This document shows, one piece after another, positions 35,478 through 42,206 of a stretch of 64,000 nt of DNA; positions within the stretch are counted from its first letter, which is position 1; every line of letters begins with the position of its first letter. Where the stretch lies: sequence record PZ386967.1. One strand, 5' to 3'. The notes beneath the pieces are model-generated. The model was not told the DNA's origin. It ran no database searches and was given only the letters and a program-made list of their open reading frames with translations. Both the position numbers and the translations under genes were made by a program. This DNA is from a phage.

Positions 35478-36122
35478 TTACTTCTTGAACAGACGAAGGA
35501 ACTTCATCATGTTATCCATGAAAGTTGGCTTCTTGGCCTTTTGTTTTACTGGAGCACCCTGATCATTCAGAACACGACTGGCCGGAGGAGTTGGATTCAA
35601 AGATTTAATTGCCTGATTCAAATCGGAATTATCCACGACACCCACTTCTTCACCGACCGTAACGCATGGTTTGATTAGAACGGATTTCTTAGACTGCTCA
35701 TACTGATGAGCGATATCCAGATATTTCTTGCGCTCTGCGTAGAAATCAACAGACTTGACCTTGCGACGACGCCAATTGGCGCTTTCTTCGCCATAGAAAT
35801 CATATCCGTTTCTGATCAGCCAGTGTACGGCTTGTTCAAAAGAACCGAAGACCATAAGTGGAGCACCCTGGCCTTTCTCAGATTGTTCCAGGCTACCATA
35901 ACCCATCAATACAACCTGGCCTTTGATACTCAAATCAAACGTCATACCAAGGTTCGGGATGTTTTTATCGCGGCGGAAGAACCCGCCATCACGGTAGACG
36001 TAAACAGGCGACAGGAACTCATTCAGAGTACGCTTGACACCCTTGTATCGGAAGAGTCTGACAATTGGAGGGGTGTCACGGGAAATCACTTCGTTCAATT
36101 CCCAGATAGAAACATTACGCAT
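35478..36122 (-). CDS. hypothetical protein
   Basis: 214-aa ORF, ATG start, basic C-terminus. Confidence 0.45.
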   Translation of the reverse strand: MRNVSIWELNEVISRDTPPIVRLFRYKGVKRTLNEFLSPVYVYRDGGFFRRDKNIPNLGMTFDLSIKGQVVLMGYGSLEQSEKGQGAPLMVFGSFEQAVHWLIRNGYDFYGEESANWRRRKVKSVDFYAERKKYLDIAHQYEQSKKSVLIKPCVTVGEEVGVVDNSDLNQAIKSLNPTPPASRVLNDQGAPVKQKAKKPTFMDNMMKFLRLFKK

Positions 36123-36245
36123 CGGTGTATCCTCAAATCTATGACAGGGGGTTAACGGTTAAATTTTAAACCCCCTTTGTATCATTGAACAAACTATGAT
36201 AAAGGAGGACATGCTTGGGTCGATAAGAAGATAATAAGACAGGGA

Positions 36246-36274
36246 TAAAAAGAAAGCCGGATAGGATATCCGGC
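36246..36274 (-). terminator. rho-independent terminator closing the tRNA cluster
   Basis: Hairpin GCCGGATA-GGA-TATCCGGC followed by a U-run on the minus strand. Confidence 0.5.
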
Positions 36275-36492
36275 TATACCACATCGATGGGTTGGGTTGA
36301 AAGACTACACGCTTACACTGGTACTACCCTATGGGAGAGCGCGTCAGGAGTCGAACCTGAAGTCGTCGACGTAGAGAAAGCTATTTGCATTTCACTATCC
36401 TCGCCGCGATTTTCTTAACTTCCTAAACACCCCGATTACGAGAGAGTCGACATGCACATCTTCTAACTCTTCAGGAAGTCACGCCCGTAATT

Positions 36493-36581
36493 TGGCGGAA
36501 GGTGAAGGATTCGAACCTTCGGGGGCTAAAAGCCCCACTCGATTAGCAGTCGAGTCCCTTAAACCTCTCGGGCAACCTTCC
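36493..36581 (-). tRNA. tRNA-Ser (anticodon GCU)
   Basis: Hand-folded cloverleaf: acceptor GGAAGGT/ACCTTCC, anticodon loop CTGCTAA, long variable arm, T-loop GGTTCGAATCC, encoded CCA. Confidence 0.8.
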
Positions 36582-36801
36582 AATTTGGACGGGCTTCACA
36601 CCCGATTGAGCATTTGATCTGCTGTAGCCCAACTCCCCGCGCTTCTCAGCGCCGATTGGTTAACTGGCGACCAGTGCCTTCTGGTTCGATCTCCTGGAAC
36701 TTTACAGGCTTTGCGCCCGACCATTTCTGGAAGTTGGGGCATCGTTTCCGATGTGGAGTCACCCCATTTTATACACAGCTGGCTGCAACGCTTACTGTGT
36801 T

Positions 36802-36886
36802 TGGTGTGAGTGGATGGATTCGAACCACCGCGCTGTTACGGGGAGATTTACAGTCTCCTGCATTCGACCGCTCTGCCACACTCACA
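36802..36886 (-). tRNA. tRNA-Tyr (anticodon GUA)
   Basis: Acceptor GTGAGTG/CACTCAC, anticodon stem GGAGA/TCTCC with loop CTGTAAA, long variable arm, T-loop TTCGAAT, encoded CCA. Confidence 0.75.
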
Positions 36887-37142
36887 TTTGGTCTGCCGCT
36901 GCGTGCTGGGCCACGCTCGAGGACATCGGCCATCCTTCCTCAGCTAATCCACGCAGCGGTAGATTTGTATCAGAGTGTCCGGTGTAGCAACCCGTGAGGT
37001 GCGCACTACTGTAGCCTCTACACTCTGAATTTGGTGGGCGTTACTATCGTCGTCTTCGGATTCCGTTCGGCTATTGGACAGAGGCTTGGAGCTTGTCGGT
37101 CGCGTACTTTATGCCTATTCACTTTCGTTCACACCCATTGTC

Positions 37143-37218
37143 TGGCGACGATGGCAGGACTTGAACCTGCGACATACGGTTTAACAGACCGCCGTTCTAC
37201 CGACTGAACTACATCGTC
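37143..37218 (-). tRNA. tRNA-Asn (anticodon GUU)
   Basis: Acceptor GACGATG/CATCGTC, anticodon loop CTGTTAA, T-arm CAGG-TTCAAGT-CCTG, encoded CCA. Confidence 0.8.
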
Positions 37219-37389
37219 TTGCAAATCACTATACCATATAAAGTTTATTGAACAAACATTTATTTTACAACAAACTGTATTGGCGGGGTCTGAGGCTTTT
37301 CACCTCACCTGCTGGGTTTGGCCGCCCAGCCGTTCTCTATGAGGATTCACTGTCCGGACAGCTATCCATTAAACTATCGCCCCTCAATA

Positions 37390-37466
37390 TGGTGATCCTG
37401 ATTGGGTTTGAACCAATGACCAATGAATTATGAGTTCACTGCTCTAACCGACTGAGCTACAGGACC
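37390..37466 (-). tRNA. tRNA-Met (anticodon CAU; initiator, elongator or Ile2 not resolved)
   Basis: Acceptor GGTCCTG/CAGGATC, D-arm TAGCTCAGTCGGTTAGAGCA, anticodon loop CTCATAA, T-loop GGTTCAAACCC, encoded CCA. Confidence 0.8.
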
Positions 37467-37469
37467 AAA

Positions 37470-39285
37470 TTATTGTGTGACCAACCAAGGACTGTCAACC
37501 CTTTATCCCGTTTGTGCATGATCAGTTCATACAGGCCTCTTTGTGCTGCCTCACGGCATGCGCTTCTGTTGGTCATTGGCTTACACTGTGGCCTCACAAC
37601 AGGCGTTTATTTTTCCAGGGCTTTCCACTTACAAGTCTTAACCAGACCGGGATACGGGCTTGTAAGATCGGGTTGGACACAACTTTGAGGACACTGACGA
37701 CGTATACGAGTCACCCATAACAGATATTCGGATGCCAGTGTCCTCAAAGTTGCAACCAATGTCGCAACTCGCAGCTTCCATACAGAAGCAACTTGTCCTC
37801 TAACGCTCGGACCAAACGAGGCTGGCTGGTTGATTCAGAGCCGCTGGTTGCTCCAGCAAGCATGGGTTGATAGCCCGGCAACATAGAATCACCCAAAGAT
37901 GAAGAACATTCATGACTCACATCACACCACGAATGGCCTGAAAGAGAATCGAACTCTTTAAATGCTCTTCATTTTGTGAACTTGAGAATACTACGCCTGT
38001 CTCGGGTTTCCCCTTAGTTCGGCCTCCCAGTCCTCGCCGCGCCGGGTAGCTAACCCTGATGGCTCGTCTGCTACTGAGTTCTTCTTGGTGCCCACCAGTG
38101 TCCGGAATGTGTAGACATCGCAATCTGCAAGGCATGGTCTATTTCACCCAATGCTCTCTCAAGTTCACAAATCGAAGTGCCCTGACTCAACAGTATGGCC
38201 CAATATGCTGTTATCGTCCACCGGATTGGCCGCCCAATTTGTAGATCAACCTTTGGGTTTAAGATAAATTGTCAAGGCACTTCGATTTGTGTGCCCTTCA
38301 CCTGCCAGGGATCAGGGCTGATGGCAAGACTTCGCTCACATCTTTCAAGATACTCGTGAGAATATCCTCAAAGATGTGGAGCCGTTTTAGGGAGTCGAAC
38401 CCAAATGCTCGGCCAGCGCTGACCTTACATCCCATCTGACTTAGGCAACCCACCTCTGCTTACTCAGGAGCTTATCCCCTTTGGACAGTCAGATATAACG
38501 GCATTGTCGACGGGAGCTTATTAATCACACCCTCCCGTCTATTGTTAGTGCGCCGAATTTGTTGATGAGGAATCGGAAGACCTCACTGACTTATAGGCTA
38601 TTACGCCGCCATCAGAACTTCGGAATCATTAGCAGTTATTTGCTTGGTCAGTTTCTAAAACCCGCAAAGTCACGCACAACGAAAACGAAAACCTGTTTGA
38701 GTCCTAAACGTACCTGTCTTGGTCTCACAACACTATGAGTGGCCAGGACTCAAACAGCTTGCCGTTCAGTGGGTTAACTATACTTTGTAACCCGTTATTG
38801 ATAAAACCTTTTATTTTTGTTGGCGAGGGCGTCACCATCGATTTACCGGAACTTACGCATCCGGCCTCGCCTGTTGGTGCTCCTTCGAATCCGGGAAGAT
38901 TAGTAGGAACTATGAATCAAGTTAATTCGACCAACAGGAACCTTGTTGCCCTTTGACGCAACATTATGAACCCTCTGTGAAGACTCATAATGTTGTCGGC
39001 GTGATGGAGATTAGCGCCCCCGACCTCCCCTTATACGTTGGTGTCGACTTGCCAACAGGGTGCTCTCTGATTCTGAGCTAATCACGCTACAACAGGGAGT
39101 TTCGTTCTCCGACGGTCAGTGCGTCCACCGACACCAGCGAGGTTGATATTACGCCTCTATTCGTCACGGTGCCCTGAGACTGGGCTTTCCTGGTTTCGGG
39201 TTCCAACCCTACTCCCACCGCGCTATTCGCCTCGTGTTTAATACTTTACTACAGCCCAACTAATTTGAAAAGTCCTCTCCTCTTT
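37470..39285 (-). ncRNA. candidate structured non-coding RNA locus (unclassified)
   Basis: About 1.8 kb with no credible ORF in any frame, visibly more GC-rich than flanking genes, with several long-range perfect inverted repeats of 12-17 bp; directly downstream of a small ORF and upstream of the tRNAs on the same strand. Strand and boundaries are guesses. Confidence 0.3.
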
Positions 39286-39432
39286 GAGCTACACTGCCCA
39301 CAGCAGTGCGGACGAACCTGAACTCAAAACCGGATGCGCCGAAGTGGGCGTCTGTTTACCGGACTGATCGGGTCGACCCAGGAGAGAGCAGGTAATCCCG
39401 ATCAGAAGGATGAGGAGTAACATCATGTAAAA
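39286..39432 (-). CDS. small hydrophobic peptide (48 aa, below the ORF-track cutoff)
   Basis: Hand-translated MFYMMLLLILLIGITCSLLGRPDQSGKQTPTSAHPVLSSGSSALLWAV with GGAGGG SD 6-8 nt upstream. Confidence 0.3.
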
Positions 39433-39492
39433 CATAGTGTTCCCTCCCTTCCATGCAAATAACTTTACTGCAATTATTTATTGAATAAAGCG

Positions 39493-40062
39493 TTATTTTA
39501 ACACTTCTAACTTCACAACACGACGCAGAAGGTAAACATATTCGCCAGCAGCTTCATGCGTCATATAATGGGTAGAAGGTGTGGAATGAGTGTTCTGGGT
39601 TTCTTTTAATCCAACGCGTTCAGCCCAACCATTAATAGAGTTTCCATAGAAACCGATAATCGCGCCAAAATAAATGCGCCCGCTTTCTGGCTCTAAAACG
39701 TAGTTGACAGTGAAGCAAATGTCCGAACGAATAGACTCCAGTTTCATACCAACACGACCTTCAGAGAATTCGTTACGAACATATAAATGACGGAAACGAT
39801 TACGCCGCGCTTGTGATGATTCTTCCATTTCTTGTCGAAGCGAAGAAGTTATGTCAATATTAAATGAAAATGTTGGATTTCGTAAATCAGAACGGGCCAA
39901 CTCTAAGGCAGATTCAATAACGCGACGGAAATTGATACTTTTACCTGTCAGGCGTTTCACTTCTTCGGTGATTGTTCCAAAAGGGATTTTCGTGGCGCGT
40001 TCCCCTTCGTATTTTGCTAACAAAGGAATAATGTGTTTCATAATTGCTGTGTTAATGTGCAT
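39493..40062 (-). CDS. hypothetical protein in an AT-rich island
   Basis: 189-aa ORF; ATG with GAGG SD; flanks are AT-rich. Confidence 0.45.
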   Translation of the reverse strand: MHINTAIMKHIIPLLAKYEGERATKIPFGTITEEVKRLTGKSINFRRVIESALELARSDLRNPTFSFNIDITSSLRQEMEESSQARRNRFRHLYVRNEFSEGRVGMKLESIRSDICFTVNYVLEPESGRIYFGAIIGFYGNSINGWAERVGLKETQNTHSTPSTHYMTHEAAGEYVYLLRRVVKLEVLK

Positions 40063-40380
40063 TCCGGAGCCTCACTCGATTGATTAAATGTCTCCGTTAT
40101 TATATTGGGAGTATGTTTATTGAATATAAACACAGGAATGACCAACAAAATAGGAGCGCGGTTTATTAATAGGTAAAAACTACTTTTCTACAACATCAAG
40201 AAACTGTATCCTAACGCAGTGCCCTTCGAGTTGTGAGTGTCAACGAACAACGAGAAGCAGCCTCCATGGCTGTGGAATGGTGCTGCCCGCATAGGGCGGT
40301 GTTACGAGCGAGGGCGTCAGCCCCCTCGCGAGTTATATTCGAATAAATTAAACGCGCGCGAGAGTTTTGATTCCCGTTGG

Positions 40381-40388
40381 CTAAATAT
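40381..40388 (+). promoter_or_regulatory. late-promoter-like motif CTAAATAT
   Basis: Located 40 nt upstream of the GGAG SD and ATG of the gp6-like gene. Confidence 0.4.
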
Positions 40389-40427
40389 CTTCAACACCAT
40401 ATTCAAACTCAGGTGATGGAGATTATC

Positions 40428-42206
40428 ATGGCCACGCAAACAGTCCCTTCACTCGATGTCAGGGCTTTCGAGTATCTTATCAAGAAGCGCATGAAAGCTG
40501 ATCCAACTTTCAAGGATTATGACTTTGAAGGTTCTGGTCTCAGTGCAATCGTGCGTATCTTGGCCTCGGATGCCAACTCTATCGGGTTCATGCAGAACAT
40601 GCTGAATGGCGAAAGCCATCTTCACTCTGCTCAACAGCGTTCTAATGTCGGTCTTGCGGCCGGGTTCTTGTCGTACACCCCTCACAACTACCAGGCGGCG
40701 TACCTGTACGCAAACGTCACAGTCACTCCATATGACGCCAGCACGGCTCCGGACACGATTATAATGGATCGCCGCGCGATGTTCATTGGGGCGAAGGATG
40801 GCAAATCCTACAACTTCACGGTTGACCAACCTGTGAGTGCCTCTCTTGTAGACGGCTCTTACAAGTTCGAGAACATCAAACTCGTACAGGGCAACTGGCT
40901 ATACAAGTCCTATGACGTGGAAGGCAGCGCGATCTCTACCTATGTGATCCCATCTTCTTCCGTGGACATCGACCATATGGTGGTGCAGGTGCAGGAATCT
41001 GAGACATCTGACGTGCGGTCTACCTTCTCACGATATGTCAGCCCGTTCGATTTGAGCCAGTATGCGCAACTCTACTTCGTTGAGCTGGGGTTGGACGGGA
41101 TGTATACGTTCGAATTCGGTGATGGGTATATCTGTAAGCGAGTAGAAGACGGGAACGTCGTGTACCTCCAGTATCTGGAGACAGCTGGTGCGGACGGCAA
41201 TGACATCACTGCCTTGTCCTCCGCGTCTTCCATCGGGGGATTCAACCTTGTAGATGTTGAGCTGGTGTCAGAACGTTCTTCCGGTGGTGCGGACCCGGAG
41301 AGCATTGAGGACATCAAGCGCCTTGCTCCGCTGGCTTATCAGGCTGAGGGTGCGGCGGTAGCTGAAGTCGATTATGCTGTGTTGACCGAGCGTCTGTTCT
41401 CCAACGTCTCCCGCGCCAAAGCATATGGCGGAGACACGCTCTCTCCGCCCGACTCCGGATACGTTTACATTGCTGTGGTGCCTTCTGTTGGTGAGACGCT
41501 CTCGGACGCCGAGAAGGCAGATATCGTGGCGAAGTTGGACAAGTACAATGTGGGCACGATCACACCCAAGATTGTCGACGCTGAACTGACTTATGTTGAT
41601 GTCACCACCCGCGTGTTCTGGGATCCGACTTCCACGACTTACACCGAAGAGCAGTTGAAGACAGTCGTGAAGAACGGTGTTGTCAACTGGGGCTTGGGGA
41701 ACCTAGAAGGATTCGACGAACTGTTCGATAAAGAGCAGTTGCAGTCGGCCATCACCGACATGGACAGATCGATAGTGTCAAACATCACTTCTGTGAAGTA
41801 TAAGCGCCATTTCAAGCCAGACTATGGGGTACTGGACAGCTTCACATTCGATTATGGGCGCTCGATTGCGTCTGGTTCTGTGCGTATCAGTGGGTTTAAG
41901 CCGCTTCCGGCCGAGGTCGAATTCACTTACTACATACGCGACGTCAGTGGTGTCCTGAATATGTACAAGGTGAGTACAACAGACACGACCAAGGAATATC
42001 TGGTACAAGCTGTTGGAATGGTTGATTATGTGACTGGCGTTGTTGAACTCCAGCGTATCATAGTATCCAACTACAACACTGAGGGTGTGACAATAATTGT
42101 GTCTCCAGACGGTCTTGACCAGAACATACAGGCCACACAGAATCAGGTGCTCCGCATCGGTGCTGTAACTGTGGAGCCGGAGGTGCGTTATGTCCAAAGA
42201 TCTTAA
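40428..42206 (+). CDS. 6: baseplate wedge protein (T4 gp6-like, Baseplate_J family)
   Basis: N-terminal DYDFEGSGLSAIVRILA matches recalled T4 gp6 (DYDFEGSRLNVLCDLLA); start moved to ATG 40428 with GGAG SD (ORF-track start is TTG). Confidence 0.7.
   Translation: MATQTVPSLDVRAFEYLIKKRMKADPTFKDYDFEGSGLSAIVRILASDANSIGFMQNMLNGESHLHSAQQRSNVGLAAGFLSYTPHNYQAAYLYANVTVTPYDASTAPDTIIMDRRAMFIGAKDGKSYNFTVDQPVSASLVDGSYKFENIKLVQGNWLYKSYDVEGSAISTYVIPSSSVDIDHMVVQVQESETSDVRSTFSRYVSPFDLSQYAQLYFVELGLDGMYTFEFGDGYICKRVEDGNVVYLQYLETAGADGNDITALSSASSIGGFNLVDVELVSERSSGGADPESIEDIKRLAPLAYQAEGAAVAEVDYAVLTERLFSNVSRAKAYGGDTLSPPDSGYVYIAVVPSVGETLSDAEKADIVAKLDKYNVGTITPKIVDAELTYVDVTTRVFWDPTSTTYTEEQLKTVVKNGVVNWGLGNLEGFDELFDKEQLQSAITDMDRSIVSNITSVKYKRHFKPDYGVLDSFTFDYGRSIASGSVRISGFKPLPAEVEFTYYIRDVSGVLNMYKVSTTDTTKEYLVQAVGMVDYVTGVVELQRIIVSNYNTEGVTIIVSPDGLDQNIQATQNQVLRIGAVTVEPEVRYVQRS

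What the first reader, a model, noticed from the sequence alone, without database searches (positions are those of the whole stretch)
37973..38291. Mutually exclusive helices: one segment can pair with either an upstream or a downstream partner
The segment 38157-38181 (TCTCAAGTTCACAAATCGAAGTGCC) can pair through its 5' part with 37973-37987 (15 bp, perfect) or through its overlapping 3' part with 38276-38291 (16 bp, perfect). The two helices share nucleotides 38166-38171, so they cannot form together. This is the layout of a riboswitch or attenuator-like conformational switch, or of alternative folding intermediates in a large RNA.
Basis: seen in the sequence. Interest (0 to 1): 0.55.

Follow-up and report, generated by a model that had tools for sequence, protein, structure and literature searches.

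The report
Stacked stems of a phage RNA
The three complementary segments are real and conserved, but they are the two closing stems of an undescribed ~320-base folded RNA encoded next to the tRNA genes of Ackermannviridae phages; the stems form together and only their 6-base border is shared, so this is not an on/off switch.

Summary
37973-37987 pairs perfectly with 38157-38171 (15 bp), and 38166-38181 pairs perfectly with 38276-38291 (16 bp, extendable to 21 bp with one mismatch). These are two of only three perfect inverted repeats of at least 15 bp within 400 nt in the whole 64-kb window; shuffles give none.

The window is an Agtrevirus-like Ackermannviridae phage. The three segments delimit a ~320-nt module (37972-38294) conserved in Kuttervirus, Agtrevirus and Taipeivirus, with different flanks in different phages. 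It lies in an ORF-free ~1.8-kb island just upstream of the minus-strand tRNA cluster.

In 23 distinct homologues both helices are kept by compensatory changes, as are 16 of 49 internal pairs. G·U pairs occur almost only on the minus strand, so the RNA is read from the minus strand.

The switch reading is not supported. In the partition function both helices form with probability near 1, and only the 6-nt border slides. Either/or states cost about 10-15 kcal/mol. There is no terminator, RBS, downstream ORF or Rfam match.

Best reading: two coaxially abutting closing stems of a new two-domain structured phage sRNA, one cassette in a shuffled chain of long-stem hairpins. The function is unknown. 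Fold insulation and RNase III-type processing are inferred, not shown.

The parts
37972..38294 (-). The whole conserved structured-RNA module (~320 nt): two hairpin domains. Its 5' end is at R' and its 3' end at L'.
   Evidence: Similarity to relatives starts and stops exactly here, while both flanks come in three or more unrelated versions. RNAalifold on 23 distinct homologues gives 77 pairs, 24 of them with compensatory change.
38271..38291 (-). R': 5' arm of the domain-A closing stem (minus strand CACAAAUCGAAGUGCCUUGAC).
   Evidence: 20 pairs with M', 98.9% of cells paired, 8 pairs changed on both sides. Examples are UCGA to GUAG in phage MK-13 and G-C to U-A in Kuttervirus.
38157..38186 (-). 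M': the continuous central strand (GUCAGGGCACUUCGAUUUGUGAACUUGAGA). Its 5' part pairs with R' and its 3' part with L'.
   Evidence: Sequence. Pair probabilities are about 1 with R' for 38172-38186 and about 1 with L' for 38157-38165.
38166..38171 (-). The contested hexamer UUUGUG, which can pair with CACAAA of either R' (38286-38291) or L' (37973-37978).
   Evidence: Graded probabilities across the hexamer: 0.88 down to 0.03 with R', 0.08 up to 0.97 with L'. Its one variable base pairs with L' in 23 of 23 homologues and with R' in 19 of 23.
37973..37987 (-). L': 3' arm of the domain-B closing stem (UCUCAAGUUCACAAA).
   Evidence: 15 pairs with M', 95.9% of cells paired. All one-sided changes give G·U on the minus strand: 18 cells.
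38187..38270 (-). Domain A apical region (84 nt). It varies between clades and has small helices at 38248-38250/38232-38234 and 38212-38216/38201-38205.
   Evidence: Alignment A1 and consensus fold.
37988..38156 (-). Domain B core (169 nt): a multi-helix junction. Helices: B1 38148-38154/38132-38137; B2 38108-38123/38085-38097; B3 38075-38079/38025-38029; B4 38061-38066/38038-38043; B5 38053-38056/38044-38047; B6 38021-38023/37995-37997; B7 38011-38017/38001-38006.
   Evidence: Across the 49 internal pairs of both domains (domain A's two small apical helices included), 98.8% of cells are paired and 16 pairs changed on both sides; 14 of these 16 lie in domain B. Slid controls give 0-4 such pairs.
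37996..38018 (-). Invariant 23-mer ACUAAGGGGAAACCCGAGACAGG, containing a GGG-GAAA-CCC GNRA hairpin.
   Evidence: Identical in all 23 homologues. Exact-match scans return only Ackermannviridae DNA.
37894..37976 (-). The next hairpin cassette. Its 18-pair stem (37959-37976 with 37894-37912) abuts and slightly overlaps L'.
   Evidence: Fold of the whole island on the minus strand. The stem sequence is shared by flank types 1 and 2, while the apical part differs.
37467..39288 (-). Context: an ORF-free island of abutting long-stem hairpin cassettes, between the 48-aa ORF (39289-39435) and tRNA-Met (37390-37466).
   Evidence: ORF list and tRNAs. Mosaic block structure among relatives. Other stems in the island also covary.

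Best explanation
The three segments are the closing stems of a previously undescribed, two-domain structured RNA of about 320 nt.

It is encoded on the minus strand at 38294 to 37972, inside the ORF-free RNA island that precedes the tRNA genes of Ackermannviridae phages.

Reading 5' to 3' on the minus strand:
- R' pairs with the 5' part of M' and closes an 84-nt domain.
- The 3' part of M' pairs with L' and closes a 169-nt multi-helix domain.

M' is one continuous strand, so the two stems abut and can stack end to end into a rod of about 30 bp. This rod brings the module's 5' and 3' ends together. Both stems exist at the same time. The hexamer UUUGUG in M' can be taken by the CACAAA at either end, so the junction can slide by branch migration over 6 bp at almost no energetic cost.

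Shown here: the pairings, their conservation, the strand, their coexistence, and the modular cassette nature.

Inferred, not shown: the stems insulate an autonomously folding cassette from its variable neighbours. As a perfect duplex of about two helical turns, they may also serve as a double-strand-specific (RNase III-type) processing or protection element in a long tRNA/sRNA precursor. What the domain-B core itself does is unknown.
For: Repeats:
- Exact and non-random.

Module boundaries:
- Similarity to 237 phage records begins at 37972 (or 37955) and ends at 38292 (or 38343), so the module boundaries are the helix arms.

Conservation in 23 distinct homologues from Kuttervirus, Agtrevirus and Taipeivirus:
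- R'-M' is 98.9% paired with 8 of 20 pairs compensated.
- M'-L' is 95.9% paired.
- Slid controls fall to 16-54% paired with 0-1 compensated pairs.
- Internal helices are 98.8% paired with 16 of 49 compensated.

Strand:
- On the strand-neutral closing stems there are 31 G·U cells on the minus strand against 1 on the plus strand.
- The consensus fold is -89.4 kcal/mol on the minus strand and -56.0 on the plus strand.
- The tRNAs, the flanking ORFs and the Rfam STnc100 hits in relatives are all on the minus strand.

Coexistence:
- Pair probabilities and constrained energies: unconstrained -113.5, the two registers -111.4 and -113.0, exclusive states -103.8 and -98.9 kcal/mol.

Not coding:
- The only recurrent ORF has stop codons in 5 of 23 homologues, and substitutions by codon position are 165/264/223.

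Cassette context:
- Neighbouring stems of 18-24 pairs in the island fold, 12-19 bp contiguous in consensus, also covary.
- Cassettes are swapped between phages.
Against: - No expression data are available. Transcription, the RNA ends and any processing are inferred from context only.
- Covariation rests on few deep clades: window-like/Taipeivirus, Kuttervirus, MK-13-like and IME250-like. The number of independent substitution events is therefore small, and the shuffle control does not correct for relatedness.
- The single three-way covariation at the shared hexamer (U/C in M' with A/G in both R' and L') hints that both registers may be under selection, which a purely structural reading does not require.
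- RNase III involvement is a guess from helix length alone.
- The module is absent from Limestonevirus and Miltonvirus, so it is dispensable for the family.
Confidence: 0.72

Rival explanations
1. It is a genuine conformational switch. M' toggles between R' and L', either co-transcriptionally or on binding a ligand or protein. The toggle would change processing, stability or the exposure of one CACAAA end.
For: - The two full-length helices do compete for 38166-38171.
- R' is transcribed first and would initially take the hexamer; L' arrives about 290 nt later and can displace it. The two registers are nearly isoenergetic.
- The one variable hexamer position covaries with both partners in 19 of 23 homologues.
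Against: - Only 6 of about 36 bp are contested, and both helices persist in every low-energy state. Exclusive states cost 10-15 kcal/mol.
- There is no terminator, RBS or downstream ORF to regulate.
- No aptamer match in Rfam.
- Four Taipeivirus-type homologues break the R' version of the hexamer pairing, so dual pairing is not universally kept.
Confidence: 0.1
2. It is a DNA-level feature. The inverted repeats would be recombination or inversion sites, protein-binding operators, a cruciform or origin element, or the scars of a small mobile element with a 6-bp target duplication (TTTGTG at both ends).
For: - The module is a discrete cassette with variable flanks and a direct TTTGYG at both ends.
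- The island is mosaic, with deletions between short repeats.
- HNH endonuclease genes occur in the island of some relatives.
Against: - Arms covary instead of keeping a fixed binding sequence.
- One-sided changes are tolerated only as G·U on the minus strand (31 cells against 1), which is meaningless for duplex DNA.
- Internal helices covary too.
- All 12 relatives whose synteny was mapped by BLAST, plus the metagenome contig L028, carry the segments in the same orientation, and all 23 module homologues align collinearly, so there is no sign of inversion.
- No empty site with a single TTTGTG was found; EspM4VN has a different cassette there.
- The termini are not inverted repeats of each other.
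Confidence: 0.05
3. M' acts as an internal splint. It holds the module's 3' end (L') and 5' end (R') head to tail, so that after excision the ends are joined into a circular RNA. The redundant CACAAA would allow flap equilibration at the nick.
For: - Geometry only. The plus-strand sequence of M equals L' followed by R' with one copy of CACAAA, which is the junction a circle would have.
- The module ends coincide with the arms.
Against: - No self-cleaving ribozyme, intron or other Rfam family is detected.
- No ligase link has been established.
- Adjacent hairpins sharing a strand produce the same geometry trivially.
Confidence: 0.04
4. It is a chance complementarity or part of a protein-coding gene.
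For: Short ORFs of 54-72 aa overlap the region on both strands.
Against: - Zero such repeats in shuffles.
- ORFs are not conserved and carry stops and frame changes in relatives.
- There is no third-position bias in substitutions.
Confidence: 0.01

Closest known systems
Stable non-tRNA RNAs co-encoded with phage tRNA clusters (for example T4 species 1 and 2 RNAs, rnaC/rnaD; from my own knowledge, not checked here)
   Same: It is phage-encoded, lies directly beside the tRNA genes on the same strand, is structured, has no known function, and is plausibly made from a common precursor by host RNases.
   Different: No sequence relationship. This module is larger (about 320 nt), has two domains, and is restricted to three Ackermannviridae genera. 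Its expression and stability have not been shown.
GOLLD (RF01998) and ROOL (RF03087), large structured RNAs often found next to tRNAs in phages and prophages (from my own knowledge)
   Same: Phage context, tRNA adjacency, an extensive covarying structure and unknown function. The surrounding 1.8-kb island is of comparable size.
   Different: No covariance-model match even at E<=10. The island is a mosaic of exchangeable cassettes rather than one conserved fold. The hosts are enterobacteria.
Riboswitches and transcription attenuators
   Same: One segment is complementary to two partners.
   Different: The overlap is only 6 nt and the helices coexist. There is no terminator or RBS expression platform, no regulated ORF and no known aptamer.
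RNase III processing stems, such as those flanking 16S/23S rRNA and the T7 early-region hairpins (established knowledge)
   Same: Sequences at the two ends of a functional RNA unit pair into a long, nearly perfect duplex of about two helical turns. Several such stems sit in one polycistronic non-coding region.
   Different: Cleavage is untested. Here the two ends do not pair with each other but with a shared internal strand.
STnc100 / PasD prophage sRNAs (RF02076; bioRxiv 10.64898/2026.05.13.724894)
   Same: STnc100 is a neighbour in the same island and on the same strand in Taipeivirus relatives. This shows that the island carries sRNA genes.
   Different: It is a different RNA. It is deleted from this window at 37771-37776, and the module shows no similarity to it.

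Membership tests
Riboswitch / attenuator-type conformational switch | Two alternative helices such that forming one precludes the other, giving two distinct global folds. | tested here: not met
   Both helices have pair probability 0.95-1.0 outside the shared hexamer. Exclusive states are 10-15 kcal/mol worse than coexistence.
Riboswitch / attenuator-type conformational switch | An expression platform (intrinsic terminator or RBS sequestration) followed by a regulated gene. | tested here: not met
   There is no terminator-like site between 37973 and 38291 on either strand. No ORF follows on the minus strand, only hairpins and then tRNAs.
Riboswitch / attenuator-type conformational switch | An aptamer belonging to a described class. 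| tested here: not met
   Rfam 15 cmscan at gathering score and at E<=10 gives no hit inside 37972-38294. An undescribed aptamer cannot be excluded.
Evolutionarily conserved structured non-coding RNA | Base pairs maintained by compensatory substitutions across homologues. | tested here: met
   24 of 77 consensus pairs changed on both sides. Closing stems are 97-98% paired and internal helices 98.8% paired. Slid controls give 16-54% paired.
Evolutionarily conserved structured non-coding RNA | Not protein-coding. | tested here: met
   There is no conserved ORF. Five of 23 homologues carry stops, and substitutions by codon position are 165/264/223.
Evolutionarily conserved structured non-coding RNA | Transcribed as RNA from the inferred strand. 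| not testable with these tools
   Only indirect evidence is available: G·U asymmetry of 31 to 1 on the closing stems, consensus energy of -89.4 against -56.0 kcal/mol, and co-orientation with the tRNAs and STnc100.
GOLLD / ROOL large phage RNAs | A match to the family covariance model. | tested here: not met
   No hit at E<=10 in 36000-40500 on either strand.
GOLLD / ROOL large phage RNAs | Location next to tRNA genes in a phage genome. | tested here: met
   The island abuts tRNA-Met, Asn, Tyr and Ser on the same strand.
RNase III processing stem | A regular duplex of about 20 bp or more. | tested here: met
   R'-M' forms 20-21 contiguous pairs with no bulge in any of the 23 homologues, apart from single mismatches at col 22/153 in four Taipeivirus-type sequences and col 34/141 in MK-13, and is coaxial with the 9-15 bp M'-L' stem.
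RNase III processing stem | Cleavage by RNase III in vivo or in vitro. | not testable with these tools
   No data are available. It needs an rnc mutant comparison or an in vitro cleavage assay.
tRNA / tmRNA | Cloverleaf or tRNA-like domain recognised by ARAGORN or by Rfam tRNA/tmRNA models. | tested here: not met
   ARAGORN finds nothing in the island. Rfam gives tRNA hits only at 36493-37466. The UUCGAUU in M' lies inside a duplex and is not a T-loop.
Group I / group II self-splicing intron | A match to the catalytic-core covariance model. | tested here: not met
   No Intron_gpI or group-II hit at E<=10. The flanks are not conserved exons.

The most novel reading that the evidence does not exclude
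The module would be one cassette of a new class of phage RNA locus. A tRNA-linked precursor of about 1.8 kb would be built from exchangeable cassettes, each closed by a stem of 12-21 bp, and cut at those stems.

In this cassette the internal strand M' would hold the 3' and 5' ends head to tail on a sliding junction. That would allow the ends to be joined into a circular RNA, or let the junction register gate processing.

The released domain-B RNA, with its invariant GAAA-hairpin motif, would act on a host or defence target.
Probability: 0.06. Interest if true: 0.8.

Novelty: new member of a known kind. Interest (0 to 1): 0.45.

Why it matters
Ackermannviridae (ViI-like phages) are widely isolated and used against Salmonella, E. 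coli O157, Klebsiella and Dickeya. Yet the roughly 1.8 kb beside their tRNA genes is left blank or filled with spurious small ORFs in GenBank records. A recent family review that I text-searched does not mention tRNAs, non-coding RNA, intergenic regions or transcripts at all.

Showing that this space holds covarying structured RNAs gives annotators a reason to stop calling ORFs there. It also gives experimenters defined targets with defined strand, ends and helices.

The cassette-like exchange of long-stem RNA modules is a further point of interest. One module is shared with unrelated phage families, always beside tRNAs. This suggests a pool of mobile phage RNA genes of unknown function, comparable to the long-unexplained T4 species 1 and 2 RNAs and to GOLLD and ROOL.

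The specific 'switch' idea, had it been right, would have been a rare phage riboswitch. The evidence says it is not one.

Tried and rejected
- Rfam 15, at gathering score on the whole window and at E<=10 on 36000-40500: nothing in the module.
- ARAGORN on the island: no tRNA or tmRNA.
- Exact-motif scans of IMG/VR (two patterns), GTDB genomes and JGI metagenomes: only Ackermannviridae DNA. This includes a 526-nt contaminant contig in a Flavobacterium assembly.
- blastn against 5,426 complete E. coli genomes: no match.
- nhmmer with the module profile against the Limestonevirus and Miltonvirus islands: no hit.
- Literature: searches for Ackermannviridae with non-coding RNA, Kuttervirus with transcriptome, CBA120 with RNA-seq, Viunalikevirus, and transcription start sites found no description of this region.
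- Mobile-element reading: I looked for an empty site with a single TTTGTG. EspM4VN, which lacks the module, has another cassette there instead.
- Split-tRNA or intron reading of the flanks: the T-arm-like hairpin at 37945-37961 has no matching acceptor 5' strand, and the flanks are not conserved.
- Coding potential: rejected.
- Antisense targets of the module within the 64-kb window: 15 matches of 11 nt against about 9.6 expected, none longer than 12 nt.
- Neighbouring proteins give no functional clue. Pfam and PHROGs return only families of unknown function. The PDB sequence search found nothing significant. The single-sequence AlphaFold model of the 189-aa neighbour was unusable, with pLDDT 45.
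Full report
**1. The observation**

- L, 37973-37987 = TTTGTGAACTTGAGA.
- M, 38157-38181 = TCTCAAGTTCACAAATCGAAGTGCC.
- R, 38276-38291 = GGCACTTCGATTTGTG.

L is the perfect reverse complement of 38157-38171. R is the perfect reverse complement of 38166-38181. The two pairings share 38166-38171.

The repeat finder extends M-R to 21 nt with one mismatch (38166-38186 with 38271-38291) and L-M to 24 nt at 88%.

In the whole 64-kb window there are only three perfect inverted repeats of at least 15 bp with arms within 400 nt. They are these two, plus 37680-37696/37736-37752 nearby. Block shuffles give none. The M motif has no other copy in the window.

**2. Where it lies**

The window is an Ackermannviridae phage. 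The 2-kb stretch around the finding is 92-94% identical to Escherichia phages ZQ1, A221 and YX22 and to the Agtrevirus CECAV_050. It is 82-88% identical to Kuttervirus and Taipeivirus phages.

Four tRNA genes (Ser, Tyr, Asn, Met) lie at 36493-37466 on the minus strand. Between tRNA-Met and a 48-aa ORF with a good RBS (39289-39435, minus strand) there is no ORF longer than 73 aa for about 1.8 kb. All flanking genes down to 40062 are on the minus strand. The divergent plus-strand baseplate genes start at 40377.

GenBank records either leave this stretch empty (Vi01) or fill it with short, mutually inconsistent 'hypothetical proteins' on either strand.

**3. The module**

blastn of 37900-38350 against 50,697 phage records finds 237 records, nearly all carrying names of enterobacterial hosts typical of Ackermannviridae; every record whose taxonomy was looked up is Ackermannviridae. 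The alignments start at window 37955 or 37972 and end at 38292-38293 or 38343-38345.

Pairwise maps and a multiple alignment of 12 relatives show that 37972-38294 is a discrete conserved block. Its left and right neighbours each come in three or more unrelated versions. The block's two ends are L and R. The whole island is a mosaic of such blocks.

The module was not found in:
- the Limestonevirus and Miltonvirus islands (nhmmer);
- 5,426 complete E. coli genomes;
- any non-Ackermannviridae DNA in IMG/VR, GTDB genomes or JGI metagenomes, using exact scans for its invariant 18-23-mer.

**4. It is a structured RNA read from the minus strand**

I aligned 23 distinct homologues on the minus strand (A1). 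RNAalifold predicts 77 pairs, 24 of them with changes on both sides that keep the pair.

R'-M' stem (20 pairs):
- 98.9% of cells are paired and 8 pairs are compensated.
- Examples: CACAAAUCGAAGUGCC in the window, CGCAAAUCGAAGUUCU in Kuttervirus and CGCAAAGUAGAGUCCU in MK-13. Each is matched in M', apart from one C·A mismatch in MK-13 at col 34/141.

M'-L' stem (15 pairs):
- 95.9% of cells are paired.
- One pair is compensated (U-A to C-G).
- The 18 one-sided changes all give G·U.

Sliding the 3' partners by 1-3 columns drops pairing to 16-54%, with 0-1 compensated pairs.

The internal helices are 98.8% paired with 16 of 49 pairs compensated, against 0-4 in slid controls.

Strand:
- On the two closing stems, which are defined without reference to strand, there are 31 G·U cells on the minus strand and 1 on the plus strand.
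- The consensus fold is -89.4 kcal/mol on the minus strand and -56.0 on the plus strand.
- Single-sequence z-scores are similar for both strands (-4.2 and -4.05) and so do not discriminate.

No ORF in the module is conserved. The one recurrent frame has stops in 5 of 23 homologues, and substitutions fall 165/264/223 on codon positions 1/2/3.

**5. Do the helices exclude each other?**

They do so only at their border. In the partition function of the minus-strand RNA (38305 to 37960):
- 38172-38186 pair with R' at P = 0.97-1.0.
- 38157-38165 pair with L' at P = 0.95-1.0.
- Across the hexamer 38171 to 38166, the probability shifts smoothly from R' (0.88) to L' (0.97).

Constrained folds (MFE, kcal/mol):

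| State | Energy |
|---|---|
| Unconstrained | -113.5 |
| 21 bp R'-M' plus 9 bp M'-L' | -111.4 |
| 15 bp plus 15 bp | -113.0 |
| R'-M' only | -103.8 |
| M'-L' only | -98.9 |
| M' unpaired | -83.2 |

The stable state therefore has both stems abutting on the continuous strand M', with a junction that can migrate over 6 bp. It is not two alternative global folds.

The one variable position of the hexamer pairs with L' in 23 of 23 homologues. It pairs with R' in 19 of 23; four Taipeivirus-type sequences have a U·C mismatch. Dual complementarity is common but not universal, and it rests on very few substitution events.

No terminator-like site, RBS or ORF follows on the transcribed strand. No Rfam family, riboswitch or otherwise, matches even at E<=10.

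**6. Anatomy** (window coordinates, minus strand 5' to 3')

- R': 38291-38271.
- Domain A apical region: 38270-38187. It varies between clades.
- M': 38186-38157.
- Domain B: 38156-37988. It is a multi-helix junction with helices B1-B7 and long invariant stretches. These include ACUAAGGGGAAACCCGAGACAGG (38018-37996), which contains a GAAA-capped hairpin.
- L': 37987-37973.

In a fold of the entire island, the next hairpin (37976-37959 pairing with 37912-37894, 18 pairs) starts inside the last bases of L'. Helices therefore follow one another without single-stranded linkers.

**7. The neighbourhood is a chain of exchangeable long-stem cassettes**

- Other long stems in the island also covary. 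In 37673-37696/37736-37759, GGACAC changes to UGGCUC and is compensated over a 19-bp stem. The stem 38684-38705/38745-38766 behaves similarly.
- In Taipeivirus relatives an Rfam STnc100 sRNA (RF02076, 48.7-53.6 bits against a threshold of 47) lies on the minus strand where the window has a deletion at 37771-37776. STnc100 is a known prophage-borne sRNA (bioRxiv 10.64898/2026.05.13.724894).
- EspM4VN carries a different cassette with a 20-bp stem in place of the module.
- SeKF_19 has a tRNA-like gene where the window keeps only a remnant.

**8. Mechanism**

Shown: two conserved closing stems that coexist, a shared strand, a sliding 6-bp border, minus-strand RNA, and an autonomous module.

Inferred: the stems clamp the module's ends into a rod of about 30 bp. 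This lets the cassette fold independently of whatever lies next to it. Being a regular duplex of about two helical turns, the rod is a plausible substrate for RNase III-type processing, or a protective structure, in a tRNA/sRNA precursor. This is by analogy with rRNA-operon and T7 processing stems, which is established knowledge and was not tested here. The function of the domain-B core is unknown. I found no antisense target in the window above chance, and the neighbouring proteins give no functional clue.

**9. Rivals**

- A true switch remains possible only as a local register change (about 0.10).
- DNA-level explanations are contradicted by the strand-specific G·U tolerance, the internal covariation, the constant orientation in the 12 BLAST-mapped relatives and all 23 aligned homologues, and the lack of an empty site (about 0.05).
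- The splint or circular-RNA idea follows from geometry alone (about 0.04).
- Chance or coding is excluded.

**10. Comparison with known systems, novelty and verdict**

The module behaves like other structured phage RNAs found beside tRNA genes: T4 species 1 and 2 RNAs, GOLLD and ROOL. It is not a member of any described family. Covariance models for GOLLD, ROOL, introns, tRNA, tmRNA and riboswitches were tested and not met.

Seven literature searches, together with text searches inside three of the papers they returned (including a 2024 family review), found no description of this region.

I file it as a new member of a known kind: a phage-encoded structured small RNA.

Interest is moderate. 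This is a solid lead to a new RNA family and to an overlooked RNA island in a much-used phage family, but there is no function or expression evidence yet.

Noticed in passing
window 38547-38686: A ~140-nt stretch is 72-82% identical to unannotated DNA in many unrelated phages. These include Caminolopintovirus STGO-35-1, Kolesnikvirus phiEa21-4, ~47-kb Klebsiella and Escherichia siphoviruses, and Shigella phage B2. In the two loci I inspected it lies beside or inside a tRNA array and in the same orientation as the tRNAs. It looks like a widespread tRNA-linked small RNA gene that is not in Rfam.
   Followed up: partly
window 38360-38506: This block is 95-98% identical across Kuttervirus, Taipeivirus and Agtrevirus, while its surroundings are about 80% identical. 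On the minus strand it has a 15-pair stem (38487-38503 with 38426-38441) and a T-arm-like GGGUUCGACUCCC followed by ...GGCUCCA. ARAGORN and Rfam call no tRNA or tmRNA there; the only hit is a 13-nt tmRNA 3'-end match at E=0.33.
   Followed up: partly
window 37771-37776; L004:1384-1597, L005:1383-1597, L011:1327-1540, L029:581-795: Taipeivirus relatives carry an Rfam STnc100 sRNA (RF02076) on the minus strand. The window lacks its central ~167 nt, with the two flanks joined at a 6-bp overlap, GCAGCT.
   Followed up: partly
window 37673-37759, 38684-38766, 38337-38378: Three further long hairpins lie on the minus strand (18-24 pairs in the island fold; 12-19 bp contiguous in consensus). The first two are maintained by compensatory changes between genera; the third was seen in only 3 homologues. 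The ORF-free island 37467-39288 looks like a linker-less chain of long-stem cassettes that are shuffled between phages.
   Followed up: partly
window 38801-38856 (remnant about 38826-38841); L001:2916-2982: Salmonella phage SeKF_19 has a 67-nt tRNA-like gene here, annotated tRNA-Ala, though ARAGORN does not call it. The window retains only its two ends fused (minus strand GGTGACGCCCTCGCCA), so this is an internal deletion.
   Followed up: partly
L034:1880-2010 (Enterobacter phage EspM4VN); also IME250 and KWBSE43-6, right of window 38343: A different cassette occupies this position. It has a 20-bp closing stem (ACACATCTGTGACGTATCTC / GAGATACGTCACAGATGTGT) around a segment that carries a T-arm-like CCGGTTCGAATCCGG on the minus strand.
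   Followed up: no
window 37469-37498 (minus strand): A near-consensus sigma-70-type promoter (TTGACA, 18 nt, AATAAT; 11 of 12 matches) lies directly upstream of tRNA-Met. The tRNAs may therefore have their own promoter, separate from the RNA island. A weaker promoter-like site is at 38777-38804.
   Followed up: no
window 37945-37961 (minus strand AAGAGUUCGAUUCUCUU): A T-arm-like hairpin followed by UCAGGCCA sits in the apical part of the cassette next to L'. It is present only in the window-type flank; Kuttervirus has other sequence there. No matching acceptor 5' strand was found.
   Followed up: partly
L027 (NZ_JAALLN010000218.1, Flavobacterium poyangense assembly): This 526-nt contig is 97.5% identical to window 37591-38113. 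It is almost certainly Ackermannviridae phage contamination in a bacterial draft genome.
   Followed up: yes
window 39289-39435 (minus strand): A 48-aa ORF has a strong RBS (GGGAGGG) and a hydrophobic N-terminus. It is conserved as PHROG 8415 and lies at the upstream edge of the island, followed by the conserved 189-aa PHROG 3788 protein of unknown function.
   Followed up: no
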